Of a DNA stretch of 64,000 bases, positions 1,199 to 35,956 are shown in pieces. Source of the DNA: a virus. Taxonomy: Duplodnaviria; Caudoviricetes. The notes beneath the pieces are model-generated. The model had not been told where the DNA came from, did not search any database, and was given only the letters and a program-made list of their open reading frames with translations. The stretch covers positions 32,001 through 96,000 of the IMG/VR virus record IMGVR_UViG_3300025924_000001; one strand, written 5' to 3'. The position numbers and the translations under genes are program-made. The first letter of the stretch is position 1, and each line of letters begins with the position of its first letter.

Positions 1199-4100
1199 GT
1201 CGTCCCCCTTCCGAACAGCGACAACCCGTTGGTGGGATTCCGGTTGTTGTACCGAAGCGTCTGCGTCTGGTTCACCGTGGCGAGCCGGCTCTCCGCGATG
1301 ACCGACCCCTCGACGTTGTTGTTGATGATGAGAACGCCACCGCCGGCGCCGGCAGCGAGCCCGGCGAGGCCACTGGGGATCCCGAGGGACCTCGGGTTGA
1401 GGCCGAGGTTGCCGCCGCGGGTGAGCTCCGACGCGATCGCGTTGACCGCGGATCGGATGGCGGGCATGCCGTTCAGCATGCCCATCGCGATGCCGGTGCT
1501 GAGGTGGATGCCGACCTCGTCGGCCATGCGCTTCGACGGTGAGCCGTGCTTGAACGCGTCCTTGAAGCCCTGAATCACGCCGGCCGCGAAGTTCATGATC
1601 TGGTCGTTCAGCCAGCCGGCAGCGTTCAGCATGCCGTGCACGAGGCCCTGAACGATCGCGAAGCCGGTGTTGATGAGCCAGGTGTTCGCGTTGCTCAGCA
1701 GGTTGAGGATCTTCCCGGGAAGGTCGCGGAACCACTTCCAGATGGCGTCGGCCGCCTGGTTGACGCCGTTGAGGAAGCCGGCGATGACCTCCATCGACCG
1801 GGCGAAGAGCCAGTTGCTGGCTCCCGTGAGGAAGTCGTCGATCCTCTTGGGCAGGTCGTTGAACCACTTCCAGAGCTCGAGAGCCTTCTTCTCGATCCCG
1901 TTCAGGAAGCCGTTGATCACGTCCTGGCCGTTCTTGTCGATCCAGTCCTTCGCGGTTGAGGTCGAGTCCTTGATCTTCTTAGGCAGGTCGACGCTGAAGT
2001 ACTTGACGACGGCCTCCGACGCCGACTTGATCCCGTCGATGATCGCCTGGCCGAGCTTGTTGCCCTCGCGCTGAATCGTTCCGACGAGCTCACCGAGCGC
2101 GTAGCCGATCTTGTAGGGCAGGTTGTTGAACGTGTCGATAACCAGCTTGCCGGCGTCGCTCGCCTTTCGCTGCAGCGTCCTCATCGCCTCGTCCCACTTC
2201 GAGCTGAGGCTGCTGCCAAGGCTGTTGAGGGCGTCACTGATCTTCTTCGGAAGACCCTGGGCCCACTGAATGAGGGACAGGCTCAGGTCGCCGAGCTTCT
2301 TCGGCAGGCTGACGAGCCACTCGCCAACCGCGGCCTCGTTCTTCATGAAGTCGGCGAAGCCCTTGCCGGCCTTGTCGAACGCCCACACGAGCCCCTCGAT
2401 CAGCTTGACCGAGATCAGGGTGATCACCTCGAGGAGGGGAACCATCTGCTTGACCAGGTCGGTGACGACCGGGATCAGTGGGGCAAGCGCTGGGATGATC
2501 TGCATCCACGCCTTACCGAGGTCCTCGAGCGCGGGCGACAGCTTCTTGATCATGTCAAGCGCCTCAGCGAGGAGGACCTTGACGAGCTGGGTGAGGGGTG
2601 GCAGCAGCGGCTTGATCGCCTCGACGAACGTCTTCATGTTCGTCCCGAGTTCCTCGCCGAACGCCTTCGCGATGTCGCTGATGAGCGGCAGCAGGGGAAT
2701 GATCGCCTTCGCGATGGCGTCGAGGCCGTCGAACAGTGCGCCGAGCGCCGGTGAGACCGCCGCGAGCACGTCGACGAGCAGCTCGCCGATCACCTTGACG
2801 AGGTCGCGGAACAGGTTAGCGAGCGGGGCCATCATCGGTTCCATGGCCTTGAAGGCCTCACCGATGACGACGACGACCTCCTTGAACGCCTCGCCGATCG
2901 CGTTGTTTCCCGACATGGACTTGAAGGTGCCGTCGAGCAGCTTCAGGAGGTCGATCATCGCCGGCATCATCACGTTGCCGATGCTGATGGCGGTCGCCTC
3001 GAGCTGAGCCTTGAACTTTGCGAACGCGAAGCTGAGGTTGCCCTGGACCTCGGAGAAGCCGAGAACGTCACCGTTCGCGTCCGTCGTCGCCGCACCCACG
3101 GCCTTGATCGCGTTGGTCAGCGAGTCGGCGCCGTCACCGGTTGCCTCCAGGGCCGCCTGCAGGCCGGGTGACGTGCCGATCAGCTTCTTCATCGCCTCGG
3201 GAACGGACTGCCCGACGGCGGCGGCGTTCTTCTCCGCAACCTGTCGCAGGTACTCGAGGGTGCCGGCGAGGCCGTCGGTGCCGAGGTGCTTCTTCACCTC
3301 GTCCTCCGAGGTGCCGAGCTCGGCGAACTCCTTCTTCATCTGCGTCGTGGGTGCGATGATGCTCTTGATCGCCGCGGCGACGTCCTGCGCGGCGCGCTGT
3401 GCGGTGGTGCCGTGGGCGGTCATCGCGGCCTCAACCGAGGCGACGTCGGCGAACGACAGGCCGACCGACGCGGCGATGGGCAGCACGGTGGCGAGGGACT
3501 TCGAGAAGGCGTCGAAGTTGGTCTTACCGAAGGAGATCGCCTCAACCATCTTGCTGGTGATGTCACCCGCGTCGCTGGCGGTGAGGTTGTAGTCCTTCAT
3601 GACCGTGGTGACGGCGTCCGCGACGTGGGACAGGTCGGCGCCCTCGTCCCTCGCGCCCTGCGCCGCGGCCTGCATCACCTTGAGACCATCCGCGGCGTGG
3701 TAGCCGGCGGACTCGATCGGGTACATCGCCTGAGCCATCTCGTTGGCCGTGAAGCCAACCTTCGTGGACATGTCCAGCAGGCCCTGGCTGACCAGGCCCA
3801 CGGCGCTCGACGACTCACCCGCGCTGGTCACGAGCCGGGTCACCGCGGCCTGGAAGTCACCGGCCATCGTGAGGCTCGCGGCACCGACCGCGGCGACCGC
3901 GAGGCCGGCCTTCTCCGCGATGGAACCGATGGAGGCTCCCGCGGCACCGAACGCCTCGCTCGAGCCCGCGGTCTTCGCGGCGGCTCCCTCGGACGCGGCC
4001 GCGGCCGCGTCCTGCGCCGCCGCGGCCGCGTCCGCGGCCTCACCGAGACGCGCGAGGGCGGCTGAGGCCTCGTCGGAGGACAGGACGATGCTCGCCGCGG

Positions 4101-31697: not shown

Positions 31698-32359
31698 GAT
31701 GCGATCCCTACGTTGACGTCGTCGATGGTGGGCGGCGGAAGCCCCACGCTGCCGTCACGCCAGGCGAGAACCCAGCCCTGGATGACCGGCGAGTAGTCCA
31801 TGCGCGCGACCGGGCGGCGGTCGTCGCCGTCGCGGCAACCCGGGTTGACGCACCGGACCTCACCGCGGCTGGACCAGAAGCGCAGGGTGAGCTGGCCGCA
31901 GTAGGGGCACCGTGCCTCCGCCTGGCCGACGTTTCGGGGAAGCCGTTGAGGCAGGTCCCGCTCGCCGAGGACGATGAGGGAGCGCGCGCACCAGCCGCCC
32001 AGCTCACGGGCCGGCTCGAAGAGCCAGTCGTCGTGGATGGCCTCGGCGAGGCTCACGATCGCTCGCAGGGCGAAGATCGTGTTCGCGTCGTCCCCACCGC
32101 GCCGCAGCCAGCTCATGCCGGCGAGGTCGCGCAGGTCGTTCTCGAGGTAACGCGCCGTCGCGTGGATCTCGAGAACGAGGTGGGCGACGGGGGCGTTCCA
32201 CGGTGGCTGCGAGTGGTCGATCCGACCGGTGCGACCGCGGCCGCCGAGGCGGCTCGTGGGCGTCGCGATGATCGCGTCGAGGCGGTCGACGAGGGTGACG
32301 GCGTCGGTGACCGCGGCGCTCAGCCGCTCCCGAACGGTCGATCTTACGGGCTCCACCAT
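31694..32359 (-). CDS. Hypothetical zinc-binding phage protein
   Basis: 221 aa, SQPPWN and CPYC...C..P.C motifs. Confidence 0.6.
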   Translation of the reverse strand: MVEPVRSTVRERLSAAVTDAVTLVDRLDAIIATPTSRLGGRGRTGRIDHSQPPWNAPVAHLVLEIHATARYLENDLRDLAGMSWLRRGGDDANTIFALRAIVSLAEAIHDDWLFEPARELGGWCARSLIVLGERDLPQRLPRNVGQAEARCPYCGQLTLRFWSSRGEVRCVNPGCRDGDDRRPVARMDYSPVIQGWVLAWRDGSVGLPPPTIDDVNVGIAS

Positions 32360-32650
32360 GGTGCGATAGTATCATCGCACTGGTTTTCTCAGCTGAGATC
32401 AACGTTACCGTTCGATACCTGACCCTGGACACGACGATGGGGCCGGGTTGACCCGACCCCACCGTCTCTACGCTGAGACCATCATACCACCAGTTGAGGT
32501 TCCCCTACCAGCGGCTCGCTCGCCGCAGCAGCCAGAGCCAGAACCCCAACCGACGGTGTCGACCGCGACGGTGTCGCCGTCGCAGGGGCGGCAGGACCTG
32601 GCACTTCGGGAACGTGCAGCCACCGGCGCACCAGGTGGAGCACCGGGGGT

Positions 32651-34399
32651 TCACCCCTCCCACGGCCACCGCCCCGCCTGCCGGTCCTCCCACGGCCACC
32701 GCCCCGCCTGCCGGGCCTCGAGGGTCGGGATCAGACCGAACGTCGCGTCGGTCAGGCCGCCGAGCTCGTAGCGGTTGGTGCCCGGCTGCGTCGGCAGCGC
32801 GGACGCCGTGTAGGCGGCGACGTTGAAGGCGTAGATCGGCACGCCGCGGGGCGCCGAGGCGTCGACGTCACCGATGTGGTAGCCGTGCATGACGTTGCCG
32901 AACGTCTGCAGGTCGGTGAGGATGATGACCCGTCGGTGGTCGTCCCGCAGGGTCTCGCTCACGGCCCGGGCGATCTCGGTGCCGCCGCCGACGCTGCCGA
33001 TGCTCTTCCGGAACGTCTCCACGGCCCGCAGCAGGCTCGTGCCGCGGTCGACGCCGGTGACGTGGAACTGCCGGTTCGCGAAGCCCCACAGGTCGACGCC
33101 GGCGGGGTTCCGGATCTTCAGGGCGAGCCCAAAGATCGCGGCCGCGGTCGCGTAGTCCATCTTCGACTTGCTGGACAGCTCGCCGTAGGTCATCGAACCG
33201 GAGGTGTCGACGAGCACGAGCGTCCGCCCGTCGAGGATCGGCACGTTCGCGAGCGAGTGGCTCAGGGCCTGCTCCAGGGCGTGACCCCACCGCAGGGACT
33301 GCACCTCCCGGTAGGCGGACCAGAACCGGAACGGCAGTTGCCGGCTCCGCTTGACCTGCTCCGGGTCGGCGAGCCGCGTGATCAGCGGCCCGGCCACGGA
33401 GTCCGGGACCCCGGCCTCGTCGAGGTTGCGAAGGTTCCGCAGCAGGGCCATGTAGCCCATGGTCGGTGCGGCGAGCTGCCAGATCTCGGCGTTGGTGATC
33501 GGTTCAACCCTGGTCGGCTTCTCACCGAGCCACGGCTTGAGCCACTCCCACTGCCCGACCATCGCACCCTGGATCAGGTCCAGGGAGACCTGGTTGCCTC
33601 GCAGGGCACCCCAGGCGAGCTCGTGCCGCTCGTCGGGCGCGTAGCGCGACAGGGTGTGCCGCAGGTGGACCTTGGTCAGGGACTCCGGCGGCTCCGCGTC
33701 GTCGCGACCCTGCCGCGCTGTGATCGCCCACCGGAACAGGTCGTCCTGCCACGAGCGCTCGGCACCGGGGACGCGGACGTTCGCGTGGGTCAGCTCGAGC
33801 ACGTCACCGAACCGGACGGCCTTGGCCTCACCGTCGTAGCGCAGGAACGCGGCCTCGTCGTAGAGGCGGGTGACGGCGTCGGCGACGCCGCGCTTGACCG
33901 GCTTCGGCAGCCGGAGCTGCGCGGTGCCGTCGTCGCGGATGACGCCCCAGCGGTGCTTCCAGTAGGCGAGCAGCTCGCCGGGCTCGTCCGCGCGCTGCAG
34001 GACGGACGTGATGAGCTCGCGGTTGCCGTCACCAACCTTGCCGGCAGCGAGCCGCGCGTGCACGGCCTCCGCGGCGAGCAGCAGGGACGCGGTGCGGATG
34101 TTGCCCGGGCCGCGCAGCCAGGAGAGGAAGGCACGCACCCACGGCCACGTCTCATCGTCGGTCGCGAGGCCGCGCACGAGCTCGCGGAGCCGGTCCGTGC
34201 CCTCATCCGCGGTCTCGTAGAACGCCTTCTCGCCGGCGAACCGCGTGGTTGCGCGGAGGAACAGCTCCGATCGAGCGTCGCGCGTGTAGCCCGGGGCGCC
34301 CTCGTGGGTCACGGTGTCGGGGGTCGAGCTGACCGTCCGCAGCGGGCCGCCGGGGGCGACGCGTCGCGGCTGGGTCGCTGCCTTGTTGAATCCTGCCAC
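32651..34399 (-). CDS. Ro60/Rsr TROVE-vWA RNA-binding protein
   Basis: THEGAPGY..D.RSELF, RADEPGELLAY, KPVKRGVADA, MGYMALLRNLRN, SRQLPFRF, MIDAS LVDTSGSM, GGT, IILTD; GTG at 34399 has GAGGAG RBS. Confidence 0.93.
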   Translation of the reverse strand: MAGFNKAATQPRRVAPGGPLRTVSSTPDTVTHEGAPGYTRDARSELFLRATTRFAGEKAFYETADEGTDRLRELVRGLATDDETWPWVRAFLSWLRGPGNIRTASLLLAAEAVHARLAAGKVGDGNRELITSVLQRADEPGELLAYWKHRWGVIRDDGTAQLRLPKPVKRGVADAVTRLYDEAAFLRYDGEAKAVRFGDVLELTHANVRVPGAERSWQDDLFRWAITARQGRDDAEPPESLTKVHLRHTLSRYAPDERHELAWGALRGNQVSLDLIQGAMVGQWEWLKPWLGEKPTRVEPITNAEIWQLAAPTMGYMALLRNLRNLDEAGVPDSVAGPLITRLADPEQVKRSRQLPFRFWSAYREVQSLRWGHALEQALSHSLANVPILDGRTLVLVDTSGSMTYGELSSKSKMDYATAAAIFGLALKIRNPAGVDLWGFANRQFHVTGVDRGTSLLRAVETFRKSIGSVGGGTEIARAVSETLRDDHRRVIILTDLQTFGNVMHGYHIGDVDASAPRGVPIYAFNVAAYTASALPTQPGTNRYELGGLTDATFGLIPTLEARQAGRWPWEDRQAGRWPWEG

Positions 34400-34432
34400 G
34401 TTCCTGACTCCTCTTCCTCGTTGGTCAGACAA

Positions 34433-34476
34433 CACGAGACCCTCAGCTCGACAGGGAGTGAGCTGAGGGTCTCGTG
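34433..34476. promoter_or_regulatory. 17-bp perfect hairpin between ncRNA array and Ro60 start
   Basis: CACGAGACCCTCAGCTC / GAGCTGAGGGTCTCGTG. Confidence 0.55.
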
Positions 34477-34548
34477 GTGGTGTGGTTCACCCCGTCACGG
34501 GTCAACCACGGTGCTCGTCACGGCGACTGATTGGACGAGGTCACGCCG

Positions 34549-34622
34549 TTGCGGGGACGGGATTTGAACCCGCGACCTGTGGGTTATGAGCCCAACGCGC
34601 TACCGAGCTGCGCCACCCCGCT
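34549..34622 (-). tRNA. tRNA-Met(CAT), initiator-type
   Basis: Cloverleaf, GGG-CT-CAT-AA-CCC anticodon arm, 1:72 mismatch, TTCAAAT T-loop; CCA not encoded. Confidence 0.9.
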
Positions 34623-34628
34623 AGGGCT

Positions 34629-34732
34629 TCGTGAGCTGGACCGGGACGAGACCTGAGGTTGACGATCGGCAATGAGGCGCAACCAATTTGCGAAGTAGCC
34701 GGTCGTCAGCGCACCGTCCCGGTCGCTCACGA
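34629..34732 (-). ncRNA. Y-RNA-like unit A (short)
   Basis: Terminal stem GACCGGGACG/CGTCCCGGTC, CGGTGCG, GGCTACTTC, GGTCTCG motifs. Confidence 0.7.
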
Positions 34733-34734
34733 GG

Positions 34735-34823
34735 TTCACCACGAGACCGGAGGTTGGCTGACGGACCGTCGCTACCGATTAAGAGTCGATTGAAGTATCC
34801 GTCGGCCTTCGCACCGTGGTGAA
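34735..34823 (-). ncRNA. Y-RNA-like unit B (short, Lys anticodon-like hairpin)
   Basis: TTCACCACG/CGTGGTGAA stem, CGGTGCGAAG, GGATACTTC, CGGTCTCG. Confidence 0.75.
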
Positions 34824-34840
34824 GATCATGTAGTTGTGGG

Positions 34841-34985
34841 TCGTCGCGAGACCGAGGCCGCTCACGGTTGATTCAGTAACGTGCTACCGATTACACTACA
34901 GCCCGAGGGGCCGACGGGACTCGAACCCGTACCTCAACCTTACGAGGGTTGTATTGAAGTAGCCGCTCGCTTCGCACCGCGACGA
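34841..34985 (-). ncRNA. YrlA-like Y RNA unit C
   Basis: Shared scaffold plus permuted tRNA domain: T arm ACGGG-TTCGAGT-CCCGT, loop-closed acceptor stem, D arm GTGT-AATCGGTA-GCAC. Confidence 0.82.
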
Positions 34986-34997
34986 TGAAGTTGTGGC

Positions 34998-35132
34998 TCA
35001 CCTCGAGACCGAAGCGCCGATCGGGGTATGCCGCTTGGCCGCTGCGGCTAACGACCGGGGTTGAGACCGGTCGATGGGATTCGAACCCACGATTCCACCA
35101 GGAAGTACCCGCTCAGCTTCGCACCGAGGTGA
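34998..35132 (-). ncRNA. YrlA-like Y RNA unit D
   Basis: Shared scaffold; T arm GTGGG-TTCGAAT-CCCAT, closed acceptor CGACCGG/CCGGTCG, D-like arm. Confidence 0.8.
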
Positions 35133-35162
35133 AGTTGTCGTGAGGGGTTGCCCTCTCACTCG

Positions 35163-35236
35163 TGGCTACCGCTGGGTTCGAACCAGCGACCTCCCCGGTT
35201 TCAACGGGGCGCTCTCCCAGCCTGAGCTAGGCAGCC
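35163..35236 (-). tRNA. tRNA-Phe(GAA)
   Basis: Cloverleaf, CCCCG-TT-GAA-AC-CGGGG. Confidence 0.9.
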
Positions 35237-35240
35237 AGGT

Positions 35241-35342
35241 GCACGATGCGGGGTCATCCCCCGCTTGAGCTCGTCTCATGGCCGAGCCCTTTCAGCGGTA
35301 CAGGAACTCGAGTACTTGTCAGCTGAAGGTTCGCCGTCGTGC
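35241..35342 (-). ncRNA. Unassigned multibranch structured RNA
   Basis: GCACGA/TCGTGC closing stem with three internal hairpins, between two tRNAs. Confidence 0.4.
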
Positions 35343-35352
35343 CGGCACCCCG

Positions 35353-35423
35353 TACCCCACGCCGGGATTGAACCGGCGCCAGCCGCTTGAGGGGCGGCCG
35401 TGCTACCACTACACCAGTGGGGC
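35353..35423 (-). tRNA. tRNA-Glu(CTC), atypical (C33)
   Basis: Cloverleaf, GCCGC-CC-CTC-AA-GCGGC. Confidence 0.75.
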
Positions 35424-35427
35424 GTGC

Positions 35428-35544
35428 GTTGATGTTGCTAAGCTGAATAGTACCACCAGGTGGGAATTGAACCCCGACCGCCCGTACGTTGCGGCTCCAT
35501 CCAGGAGGGAATTGAACCCCGACATCAGCTAGTTCAACATCAAC
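35428..35544 (-). ncRNA. Unassigned RNA with twin T-loop repeats
   Basis: 10-bp terminal stem, inner AGCTGA/TCAGCT stem, two copies of GTCGGGGTTCAATTCCCwCCTGG. Confidence 0.6.
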
Positions 35545-35569
35545 TTGCGACGGCGTACGACCGTCACCG

Positions 35570-35641
35570 CGCCGGAGACGGGGATTGAACCCGCGACCTC
35601 TCCCTCGACAGGGGAGCGCTCTTCCATTGAGCTACTCTGGC
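35570..35641 (-). tRNA. tRNA-Asp(GTC)
   Basis: Cloverleaf, CTCCC-CT-GTC-GA-GGGAG; one A:C mismatch in acceptor stem. Confidence 0.87.
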
Positions 35642-35645
35642 TTGA

Positions 35646-35791
35646 CCTCACCGAGACCGAGTGATCGCTCCCGGTTCCTATTGACTCATGCTCTGCCAAC
35701 TGAGCTACCGACTGCCTAGGCCGAAGGACGGGATTCGAACCCGTGACCCTGAGTTCCGCTGAAGTATCCGAGTGCGTTCGCACCGGTGAGG
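35646..35791 (-). ncRNA. YrlA-like Y RNA unit E
   Basis: CCTCACCG/CGGTGAGG stem, GGTGCGAA, GGATACTTC, T arm ACGGG-TTCGAAT-CCCGT, D arm GCTC-AGTTGGCA-GAGC, ACTCA/TGAGT stem. Confidence 0.82.
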
Positions 35792-35858
35792 CTCGTGCTG
35801 ATCGCTGGTTGAGCCGGCGAGCGTCGGGGGGTCTTAAACCCGCCGGTTGAACTGGCGA

Positions 35859-35956
35859 TGGTGAAACCGTACCATCCGTCGTCGAGCGCTGTCCAGGGCT
35901 ATTCTCAACAACTTTTACTGTTTACAAGCGACCCTCAGCGTGGTACGGTTTCACCA
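35859..35956. promoter_or_regulatory. Divergent promoter pair
   Basis: Minus: TGGACA-N18-TACGGT; plus: TTTACA-N17-TACGGT; both share TGGTACGGTTTCACCA. Confidence 0.7.

What the first reader, a model, noticed from the sequence alone, without database searches (positions are those of the whole stretch)
35428..35544. Twin T-loop RNA
Seen: a rod closed by GTTGATGTTG/CAACATCAAC and AGCTGA/TCAGCT encloses two 23-nt copies (35456-35478 and 35501-35523, one mismatch) of a T-arm-like GGG-UUCAAUU-CCC followed by CUGG. It is not a cloverleaf. Known: paired T-loops in T-box RNA, RNase P and the L1 stalk recognise the tRNA elbow. Inference: an unknown ncRNA that mimics two elbows or binds tRNA, possibly a sixth divergent Ro60 ligand.
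Basis: partly seen in the sequence, partly recalled or inferred. Interest (0 to 1): 0.72.

Follow-up and report, generated by a model that had tools for sequence, protein, structure and literature searches.

The report
Phage twin T-loop structured RNA
Between two tRNA genes, next to the Ro60 gene of an uncultured phage, lies a gene for a small folded RNA of an undescribed family that carries two copies of the tRNA T-arm on a rigid scaffold; it looks like a new kind of tRNA mimic, but its job is unknown.

Summary
The RNA lies on the minus strand and fills the whole spacer from tRNA-Asp to tRNA-Glu (35424-35568, 145 nt).

I found six further sequence versions in related ~110-kb uncultured viruses (Ro60 68-84% identical). 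In every one the element directly follows tRNA-Asp. One fold fits all seven:
- a 5' hairpin (H0);
- a long closing rod;
- five hairpins in a row: T-arm 1, a GG pentaloop hairpin, a central hairpin (Hc), T-arm 2 and a GG mini-hairpin.

The stems change by compensatory substitutions. The H0 loop is perfectly complementary to the Hc loop in four different sequence versions, which indicates a kissing-loop pseudoknot. So this is a selected, compactly folded RNA and not tRNA debris.

It has no Rfam match. It is not a tRNA. It lacks the Ro60-binding motif of the five neighbouring Y RNAs and the purine signature of the tRNA-elbow-docking double T-loop module. The 23-nt near-identical repeat is peculiar to this lineage.

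Best reading, inferred: a double tRNA-elbow mimic released by processing of the flanking tRNAs. Function and expression are untested. The scan had flagged this same stretch once more in the same genome, but nothing like it on other DNA.

The parts
35424..35568 (-). Whole RNA element: the complete spacer from the 3' end of tRNA-Asp to the 5' end of tRNA-Glu (145 nt)
   Evidence: Homologous spacers that follow tRNA-Asp in six other sequence versions. Fold z = -3.90. The core covariance model R1 scores 71.5 bits here, against 24 bits or less for non-members.
35547..35567 (-). H0: 5' hairpin, 8 bp, loop CGUAC at 35555-35559
   Evidence: Five different stem versions, all fully paired. The loop is complementary to the Hc loop.
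35535..35544 (-). P1, 5' strand (GUUGAUGUUG) of the closing rod
   Evidence: Pairs with 35428-35437. Five stem versions in the family: 51 Watson-Crick and 1 G-U cells, none unpaired.
35428..35437 (-). P1, 3' strand (CAACAUCAAC)
35525..35530 (-). P2, 5' strand (AGCUGA)
   Evidence: Pairs with 35441-35446. The three long-type members have three unrelated, perfectly complementary versions: AGCUGA/UCAGCU, GACCG/CGGUC and GCUCAC/GUGAGC.
35441..35446 (-). P2, 3' strand (UCAGCU)
35507..35519 (-). T-arm 1: GGG / UUCAAUU / CCC
   Evidence: T-loop consensus G53-U54-U55-C56-R57-A58-Y-U-C61 is met. The third stem pair is G-C, A-U or C-G in different members.
35496..35506 (-). D1: 3-bp mini-hairpin UCC[UGGAU]GGA, with a GG pentaloop (YGGRY in all seven)
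   Evidence: Stems are UCC/GGA, GGC/GCC, GUC/GAC and ACC/GGG. Two of the three pairs show changes on both sides.
35477..35495 (-). Hc: central hairpin GCCGC / AACGUACGG / GCGGU
   Evidence: Six stem versions. Its loop is the only Watson-Crick partner of the H0 loop of that length (5 nt, GUACG) anywhere in this RNA.
35462..35474 (-). T-arm 2: GGG / UUCAAUU / CCC
   Evidence: Invariant GGG/CCC stem and T-loop consensus in all seven versions.
35451..35461 (-). D2 or tail 2: ACC[UGGU]GGU-A. The conserved strand is CCYGRUGGUA, with UGGUA invariant (one member, L132, carries a 2-nt CA insertion before UGGUA)
   Evidence: Conserved in all seven versions. CC/GG never varies, so the hairpin is compatible with the data but not proven.
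35569..35641 (-). tRNA-Asp (GUC), the invariable 5' neighbour
   Evidence: tRNA-Asp precedes the element in all seven versions, while the 3' neighbour is Glu, Ile or Phe.
35352..35423 (-). tRNA-Glu (CUC), the 3' neighbour in this phage; it starts 4 nt after P1

Best explanation
The stretch is the core of a 145-nt gene for a compactly folded non-coding RNA on the minus strand (35424-35568). It belongs to a small, undescribed family found only in a sub-clade of ~110-kb uncultured actinophage-like viruses. There it always sits directly 3' of tRNA-Asp, inside the tRNA/Y-RNA array upstream of the Ro60 (rsr) gene.

Shown:
- The fold is a 5' hairpin (H0), a long closing rod (P1, plus P2/P3 in some members) and five consecutive hairpins.
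- The five hairpins are T-arm 1, a GG-pentaloop hairpin (D1), a central hairpin (Hc), T-arm 2 and a GG mini-hairpin or tail (D2).
- The H0 loop base-pairs with the Hc loop, forming a kissing-loop pseudoknot.

Inferred:
- The RNA is cut out of a polycistronic precursor by the enzymes that trim the flanking tRNAs (RNase Z or exonucleases at tRNA-Asp, RNase P at the next tRNA).
- Each tRNA-type T-loop (UUCRA) is capped by one of the conserved GG loops, as D-loop G18-G19 caps the T-loop in tRNA.
- The molecule therefore displays two tRNA-elbow look-alikes on a rigid scaffold.
- It acts in trans as a tRNA mimic. It would engage a factor that reads the T-loop or elbow: a tRNA modification or processing enzyme, or a tRNA-targeting host nuclease. 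It is not decoded, and it does not dock tRNA.

It most likely arose from duplicated tRNA 3' halves.
For: 1. Family and synteny. There are seven sequence versions (nine loci were fetched; two pairs are near-identical or overlap), and all lie between tRNA-Asp and the next tRNA.
2. One secondary-structure model fits all seven, within 3-11 kcal/mol of each unconstrained MFE. Of 275 modelled pair cells, 243 are Watson-Crick, 27 G-U and 5 other. The 27 G-U pairs would be A-C on the other strand, which fixes the RNA strand.
3. Whole-helix covariation. H0 has 5 versions, P1 5, P2 3 unrelated versions, Hc 6 and D1 4.
4. The small core helices scored on the MAFFT alignment A4 are 93.9% paired, against 49-64% when the partners are slid. 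0 of 500 shuffles reach the observed covariation score.
5. The H0 loop is perfectly complementary to the Hc loop in every member, in four sequence versions: CGUAC/GUACG, GUACGA/UCGUAC, CCACGA/UCGUGG and CGCGA/UCGCG. The Hc loop is the only partner of that length in five RNAs and one of two in L007 and L135. Composition-preserving shuffles of the two loops reach this in 0.5-3% of trials per sequence.
6. Both T-loops meet the tRNA T-loop consensus. The GG of D1 (YGGRY) and the UGGUA of tail 2 are invariant.
7. L135 alone has C56 to U in T-loop 1 and G to A in the first GG of tail 2. This is what a C56-G19-like tertiary pair would predict, but it is a single case.
8. Covariance model R1 separates members (67-94 bits) from everything else (24 bits or less).
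9. T2 plus its tail shares CCCACCUG with a real tRNA-Ala T-arm and acceptor strand in a related phage, which fits a tRNA-derived origin.
Against: - There are no expression data.
- The T-stems have only three solid pairs. Positions 49-50/64-65 of T2 pair in a minority of members.
- D2 and T2 never vary at their paired positions, so they carry no covariation evidence.
- The T-loop to GG-loop contacts rest on sequence conservation plus one co-variation event.
- RNAalifold offers competing pairings. One is T-loop 1 with T-loop 2, since the UUCRA motif is partly self-complementary. The other is a CRGG/CCYG helix, seen only in the short type.
- The family is narrow. It is absent from phages whose Ro60 is 54-57% identical, and from the two GenBank Streptomyces phages I scanned, BRock and pSt2308.
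- No partner protein is identified.
Confidence: 0.45

Rival explanations
1. Cis-acting structured spacer. The element would serve the array itself. It could act as a folding insulator, as a processing guide for the 3' end of tRNA-Asp and the 5' end of the next tRNA, or as a stabiliser. It would have no function in trans.
For: It is always fused to tRNA-Asp, 1-2 nt after the discriminator, and it ends 4-5 nt before the next tRNA. A second conserved companion RNA follows tRNA-Glu in the same way, so 'tRNA plus companion' looks like a building principle of these arrays.
Against: A mere spacer does not need two invariant T-loops, invariant GG loops and a covarying kissing loop. Related phages process tRNA-Asp without it; a Y RNA occupies that place instead.
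Confidence: 0.2
2. Ro60 (Rsr) partner. The element would be either a sixth, divergent Y RNA whose rod binds the outside of the Ro60 ring, or a dedicated substrate or regulator of the phage Ro60-Y RNA particle.
For: It is co-oriented with, and 1 kb upstream of, the TROVE gene, in one array with five Y RNAs. It has a long rod with an internal loop in the long-type members. The L132 rod contains GGUCCGAUGG, which from memory resembles the metazoan Y RNA 5' strand; this was not tested.
Against: The GGUGCGAA...UACUUC motif shared by the five Y RNAs is absent, and the Rfam YrlA model gives no hit on the element in this window or in five homologues. The rod is not conserved in sequence, length or internal loop. 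The short type has a plain 10-bp stem.
Confidence: 0.12
3. tRNA-elbow receptor. The two T-loops would interdigitate head-to-tail, as in T-box Stem I, RNase P J11/12-J12/13 and the L1 stalk, and stack on the elbow of a tRNA, for example tRNA-Asp.
For: Two T-loops lie 45-50 nt apart on one scaffold. Interdigitated T-loops are the recurrent RNA solution for docking the elbow (PMC4810234, PMC3664808). The linkage to tRNA-Asp is constant.
Against: The defining core of that module is purine-rich AG..A plus UG..A, with different 5' closing residues (PMC3664808). Both loops here are tRNA-type UUCRA with U at position 2. The conserved GG loops are the natural partners of tRNA-type T-loops.
Confidence: 0.07
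4. Non-functional debris: two decaying 3' halves of tRNA genes left by duplication or recombination in a tRNA array.
For: The T-arms look tRNA-derived. T2 plus its tail resembles a tRNA-Ala 3' half. Many metagenomic twin-T-arm hits are a tRNA plus a partial tRNA duplicate. The 23-nt repeat of this window looks like recent homogenisation.
Against: The element is retained at one position in seven diverged versions, with compensatory changes in H0, P1, P2, D1, Hc and the H0-Hc loop pairing. Debris has no closing rod and no kissing loop.
Confidence: 0.04

Closest known systems
YrlA / bacterial and phage Y RNAs with a tRNA-like domain (Rfam RF02553; Chen et al. 2014, PMC4201824)
   Same: It is encoded upstream of a Ro60 (rsr) gene in one array with tRNAs. 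It is tRNA-derived and contains a consensus T-arm. It is probably released from a common precursor. YrlA is known to be modified and processed by tRNA enzymes.
   Different: It has no Ro60-binding helix motif and gets no YrlA model hit. It has two T-arms rather than one. Its GG loops are 4-5 nt on 3-bp stems, not a real D-arm. It has no acceptor-like hairpin between T and D. It has a kissing-loop pseudoknot that is not described for YrlA.
tRNA (Rfam RF00005): the T-arm and the D-loop/T-loop elbow
   Same: Both hairpin loops meet the T-loop consensus (G53, U54, U55, C56, R57, A58, C61). GG-containing loops are conserved, as in the D-loop. The tail UGGUA followed by a helix strand resembles G18-G19-U20-A21 plus the 3' strand of the D-stem.
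   Different: It has no acceptor stem, no anticodon arm and no cloverleaf, and ARAGORN and the Rfam tRNA model do not detect it. Its T-stems have 3 solid pairs rather than 5. It has two T-arms.
Head-to-tail (interdigitated) double T-loop module of T-box Stem I, RNase P and the 23S L1 stalk (PMC3664808, PMC4810234)
   Same: Two T-loops in one compact RNA, and a link to tRNA biology.
   Different: That module has AG..A and UG..A purine cores in internal or apical loops and docks onto tRNA. Here both loops are tRNA-type UUCRA hairpin loops with adjacent GG loops, so the element looks like the thing recognised, not the recogniser.
Viral and cellular tRNA-like structures that copy the elbow (the TYMV TLS and the lncRNA 3'-end tRNA mimics are described in PMC4810234; mascRNA and the tmRNA tRNA-like domain are named from my own knowledge)
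   Same: A T-loop/D-loop-type elbow rebuilt in a non-cloverleaf topology in order to engage tRNA-binding host factors.
   Different: Those RNAs carry one elbow and usually an aminoacylatable or RNase P-cleavable acceptor end. This RNA has two elbow candidates and no acceptor-like 3' end.

Membership tests
tRNA (RF00005) | Cloverleaf with a 7-bp acceptor stem, D-arm, anticodon arm and T-arm that tRNA models can detect | tested here: not met
   ARAGORN finds four tRNAs and none in 35424-35568. The Rfam tRNA model gives no hit there even at E up to 10, and none in five homologues at E up to 1.
tRNA (RF00005) | T-loop sequence G53-U54-U55-C56-R57-A58-N-N-C61 | tested here: met
   Both loops meet it in all seven versions, except that T-loop 1 of L135 has U56.
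YrlA / Y RNA (RF02553) | Ro60-binding bulged helix with the conserved motif (GNCGAA-type; in this phage GGUGCGAA...UACUUC) | tested here: not met
   The motif copies lie at about 34692-34717, 34792-34824, 34956-34995, 35102-35134 and 35761-35793 only (families D4-D6 and D15). None lies in 35424-35568.
YrlA / Y RNA (RF02553) | Permuted tRNA-like domain, T-arm then acceptor-like hairpin then D-arm, detectable by the YrlA covariance model | tested here: not met
   YrlA hits fall at 34881-34931 and 35686-35752 only. None falls on the homologous elements.
YrlA / Y RNA (RF02553) | Physical binding to Ro60/Rsr | not testable with these tools
   This needs a pull-down or gel shift. Complex prediction takes proteins only.
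[quoted passage not shown] | Two T-loops with conserved AG..A and UG..A cores and different 5' closing residues (PMC3664808) | tested here: not met
   Both loops read U-U-C-R-A, with U at positions 1 and 2.
[quoted passage not shown] | Reciprocal intercalation of residue 5 of each loop into the 4-5 gap of the other | not testable with these tools
   This needs a 3D structure or probing.
tRNA-elbow mimic (T-loop capped by a GG loop) | A conserved GG available for each T-loop (G18-G19 analogues) | tested here: met
   The D1 pentaloop is YGGRY in 7 of 7. Tail 2 is CCYGRUGGUA with UGGUA in 7 of 7; L132 has a 2-nt insertion before UGGUA.
tRNA-elbow mimic (T-loop capped by a GG loop) | Tertiary pair C56-G19 supported by covariation | tested here: inconclusive
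There is a single event: L135 has U56 in T-loop 1 and A in place of the second G of the first GG of tail 2.
Structured ncRNA (general) | Helices kept through compensatory changes, beyond shuffled and slid controls | tested here: met

The most novel reading that the evidence does not exclude
The RNA is a new class of phage tRNA decoy. A rigid scaffold locked by a kissing loop presents two tRNA elbows at a fixed spacing. These would trap or recruit a dimeric factor that reads the elbow or T-loop, for example RNase Z, a CCA-adding or T-loop-modifying enzyme, or an anti-phage tRNA nuclease. In that way it would work alongside the phage's own tRNAs and Ro60-Y RNA particles to protect or re-tune the tRNA pool during infection.
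Probability: 0.2. Interest if true: 0.85.

Novelty: new variant of a known kind. Interest (0 to 1): 0.6.

Why it matters
tRNA mimicry by small RNAs next to Ro60 is known from YrlA, but its purpose is still open. This family shows that the phage arrays hold further modules that are elaborately folded, tRNA-derived and lack a Ro60-binding site.

The family is a compact RNA of about 125-150 nt with two T-loops, two GG loops and a covarying kissing loop. That makes it an attractive target for structure determination. It is also a direct handle on the question of which host tRNA-reading factor these phages are addressing.

If it is a double-elbow decoy, it would add an RNA-based tool to the phage repertoire against tRNA-targeting defences. 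It would also be the first case I know of (from my own knowledge; no literature search tested this) of one RNA displaying two tRNA elbows.

If it is only a processing aid, it is still a new conserved RNA family for Rfam.

Tried and rejected
- Exact and degenerate DNA patterns in IMG/VR found only three distinct versions and one chance hit in a coding region (L011).
The hits were mostly a tRNA followed by a partial tRNA duplicate, permuted tmRNAs or repeats, with no member of this family. The look-ups through Ro60 homologues were far more productive.
- The pattern scan of prokaryotic genomes gave two partial matches covering only T2 and the tail, and neither is a member.
- The simple promoter and terminator scans found nothing. 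Actinobacterial signals are not covered by them.
- MAFFT alignments of the full element mis-register P1, P3 and the Hc loop between the long and short types. I therefore scored the outer helices and the kissing loop on explicit per-sequence models in a script.
- A tail 1/tail 2 helix (CCNGG with CCNGG) and a CRGG/CCYG helix are possible only in the short type, so I rejected them as family features.
- I considered and rejected reading Hc as an anticodon arm. L008 has a 7-nt CUCGUAC loop, but the loop differs in length and sequence between members and is used in the kissing pair.
- I considered and rejected reading the T2 tail (CUGGUGG-U) as an acceptor 3' strand, because no complementary 5' strand exists in any member.
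- An attP-like tRNA fragment is unlikely in a DTR phage, and it does not explain the covarying helices.
- The pairing of T-loop 1 with T-loop 2 proposed by RNAalifold follows from the self-complementarity of UUCGAA-type loops and shows no change on both sides.

Full report
**What is there**

The window is part of a 111,864-bp virus record with direct terminal repeats. All relevant features lie on the minus strand:
- a TROVE/Ro60 (rsr) gene at 32651-34435;
- four tRNAs: Met 34548-34622, Phe 35162-35236, Glu 35352-35423 and Asp 35569-35641;
- five Y-RNA-like units that share a GGUGCGAA...UACUUC motif, two of which give weak Rfam YrlA hits.

The finding lies in the spacer between tRNA-Asp and tRNA-Glu.

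The two 23-mers (35456-35478 and 35501-35523) differ at one base, and the motif has 2 matches in the window against 0.00 expected. The two closing helices are present, and the stretch folds better than shuffles (z = -3.67 for 117 nt; z = -3.90 for the whole 145-nt spacer). No tRNA or other Rfam family matches it, even at E up to 10.

**Relatives**

GenBank phages hold nothing close. The best Ro60 match is 39% identical, and blastn with the array hits only tRNA-Met and YrlA.

IMG/VR and public assemblies, reached by DNA patterns and through Ro60 homologues, gave six further sequence versions:
- L008:7911-8058;
- L132:2639-2787;
- L007:3040-3164 (L004 gives the same tRNA coordinates and model score; L009 and L010 come from the same two contigs);
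- L133:2482-2606;
- L134:2571-2695;
- L135:605-730.

L002 is a near-identical copy of the window's own version.

The Ro60 proteins of these viruses are 68-84% identical to the window's. In all seven versions the element starts 1-2 nt after tRNA-Asp. The downstream tRNA is Glu, Ile or Phe, and the upstream neighbour of tRNA-Asp also varies. So tRNA-Asp and the element travel together as a unit.

The element is absent elsewhere. Phages whose Ro60 is 54-57% identical lack it: L137, L138 and L142-L146 give at most 24 bits, on real tRNAs. There the place after tRNA-Asp is taken by a Y RNA. Streptomyces phages BRock and pSt2308 also lack it. A pattern scan of 185,579 prokaryotic species genomes gave only two partial chance matches. 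None of five homologues has an Rfam hit at E up to 1.

**Fold**

I wrote one explicit model for each sequence and checked it by script. The model has these parts:
- H0, a 5' hairpin of 7-8 bp;
- a closing rod: P1, plus P2 and mostly P3 in the three long-type members, or a single 10-bp stem in the four short-type members;
- five hairpins with 0-5 nt between them:
  - T1, 3 bp plus the loop UUCRAYU;
  - D1, 3 bp plus the pentaloop YGGRY;
  - Hc, 5-8 bp;
  - T2, GGG/CCC plus the loop UUCRAYU;
  - D2, NCC[YGRU]GGU followed by A.

The model lies within 3-11 kcal/mol of each unconstrained MFE, although the energy model knows nothing about T-loop tertiary contacts.

Of 275 modelled pair cells, 243 are Watson-Crick, 27 G-U and 5 other. 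The G-U pairs fix the minus strand as the RNA strand.

The helices differ in sequence between members but stay paired. H0 has 5 versions, P1 5, Hc 6 and D1 4. P2 has 3 unrelated versions: AGCUGA/UCAGCU, GACCG/CGGUC and GCUCAC/GUGAGC.

The four small core helices were also scored on the MAFFT alignment A4. They are 93.9% paired, against 49-64% when the partners are slid by 1-3 columns. Three pairs show changes on both sides, and 0 of 500 shuffles reach the observed covariation score.

**A pseudoknot**

The H0 loop is perfectly Watson-Crick complementary to the Hc loop in every member, over 5-6 bp and in four different sequence versions:
- window: CGUAC/GUACG;
- L008: GUACGA/UCGUAC;
- L132: CCACGA/UCGUGG;
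- short type: CGCGA/UCGCG.

The Hc loop is the only partner of that length in five of the RNAs, and one of two in L007 and L135. Composition-preserving shuffles of the two loops reach this in 0.5-3% of trials per sequence.

Three positions of this loop-loop helix change on both sides between versions. Both hairpin stems also covary, so this is a kissing-loop interaction and not an alternative long-range helix. It makes the 5' hairpin (35547-35567) part of the element, and it indicates a compact three-dimensional fold.

**The T-arms**

Both loops meet the tRNA T-loop consensus (G53, U54, U55, C56, R57, A58, C61). The one exception is U56 in T-loop 1 of L135.

Each T-arm is followed by a conserved GG-bearing loop. 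The GG of D1 and the UGGUA of tail 2 are invariant. UGGUA followed by the helix strand GGAUC reads like G18-G19-U20-A21 plus the 3' strand of the D-stem.

L135 is also the only member in which the first GG of tail 2 reads GA. This is the change expected if that G pairs with C56 of T-loop 1. It is a single, post hoc observation.

The T-stems are weak, with three solid pairs each. T2 and D2 never vary at their paired positions.

The 22/23 identity of the two units is peculiar to the window's lineage. The other members show 10-14 of 23, almost all in the T core. The repeat is therefore a local homogenisation and not the defining feature of the family.

**What it is not**

- It is not a tRNA.
- It is not a Y RNA. 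The Ro60-binding motif is missing, there is no YrlA model hit, and the rod is not conserved in length, sequence or internal loop.
[quoted passage not shown] That module has conserved AG..A and UG..A cores (PMC3664808; PMC4810234), whereas both loops here are UUCRA.
- It is not debris, because debris would not keep a rod, five hairpins and a kissing loop through compensatory change.

Chen et al. 2014 (PMC4201824) describe YrlA and YrlB in bacteria and mycobacteriophages. My term search of that paper found no mention of an RNA with two T-arms.

**Most likely mechanism (inferred)**

The RNA would be transcribed with the array and released by the trimming of its neighbours. It would fold into a scaffold locked by the H0-Hc kiss. 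Each tRNA-type T-loop would be capped by a GG loop, giving two elbow look-alikes. It would then engage a factor that reads the T-loop or elbow.

Two pieces of context make tRNA mimicry aimed at host or phage RNA enzymes plausible. M. smegmatis YrlA is cleaved by RNase P and receives CCA, and bacterial Y RNAs carry pseudouridine 55. A phage Ro60-Y RNA complex attenuates host PNPase (PMC12135203).

I give this reading 0.45. Within it, I hold the statement 'real, conserved, compactly folded RNA' at about 0.9.

The rivals are:
- a purely cis role in processing, 0.2, helped by a second companion RNA that always follows tRNA-Glu;
- a Ro60 partner, 0.12;
- an elbow receptor, 0.07;
- debris, 0.04.

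**Novelty**

This is a new RNA family relative to Rfam 15. It is a new architectural variant of the known theme of tRNA-mimicking small RNAs in Ro60 loci. It is known so far from seven sequence versions in uncultured viruses only.

Noticed in passing
window 35237-35351 (-); L007:2696-2815; the first ~120 nt of L008:7469-7685; L132:2453-2565; L134:2389-2497; L135:138-248: A second conserved companion RNA of about 110 nt always follows tRNA-Glu. It has the closing stem GCACGA/UCGUGC, a conserved 5' GGGGUGCCGGCACGACGGCGAACC and a 3' GGGGAUGACCCCGCAUCGUGC. It has no Rfam match. Together with the pair tRNA-Asp plus twin T-loop RNA, this suggests the arrays are built from units of one tRNA and one companion RNA.
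   Followed up: partly
L007:2891-2966 and L008:7762-7837 (also L133, about 2333-2408): A stand-alone permuted tRNA-like module lies just upstream of tRNA-Asp in some relatives. It runs T-arm, then a 7-bp acceptor-like hairpin, then a D-arm, and it has no Ro60-binding stem. It gives weak YrlA or tmRNA-like Rfam hits. The window phage has no counterpart at that place.
   Followed up: partly
L140:2500-2615 (Streptomyces phage BRock) and L141:2310-2420 (phage pSt2308): In these GenBank phages the spacer after tRNA-Asp holds a different RNA-like sequence of about 110 nt. It begins CCGGCAUAGAAGAGGCGCAGACAAGGGAAGGGCCUCC, is conserved between the two phages, and carries no annotation.
   Followed up: no
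window 35859-35956 (-): A perfect 16-nt inverted repeat (TGGTGAAACCGTACCA / TGGTACGGTTTCACCA, I2) brackets a 66-nt segment. That segment carries the motif GTAAACA...AAAGTTGTTGAGA...CCCTGGACA, which is conserved at the head of the array in all relatives. It is probably the array's promoter or operator region. The sigma-70 consensus scan does not see it.
   Followed up: partly
window 34430-34479 (-): A 20-bp near-perfect hairpin lies between tRNA-Met and the start of rsr (I1). It has no U-tract. It is a possible terminator or attenuator that would separate the RNA array from rsr.
   Followed up: no
L132:5365-5820, L133:5454-5909, L137:5722-6174, L142:4446-4892: Several relatives encode a HAD_PNKP (polynucleotide kinase-phosphatase type) protein directly after Ro60, which hints at RNA-end repair. 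The window's 152-aa ORF at the corresponding place (32004-32462, minus strand) has no Pfam hit.
   Followed up: partly
L132:8353-8743: The large terminase gene of this relative carries an intein (Hint_2 and Intein_splicing hits; a 775-aa product against about 500 aa elsewhere).
   Followed up: no
short-type members, e.g. L007:3101-3104 with 3141-3144: A possible extra helix, CRGG with CCYG, would enclose Hc and T2. It has one pair that changes on both sides: G-C in L007 and L133, A-U in L134 and L135. It competes with D2 and the outer Hc pairs, and it has no counterpart in the long type. It may be an alternative conformation.
   Followed up: partly
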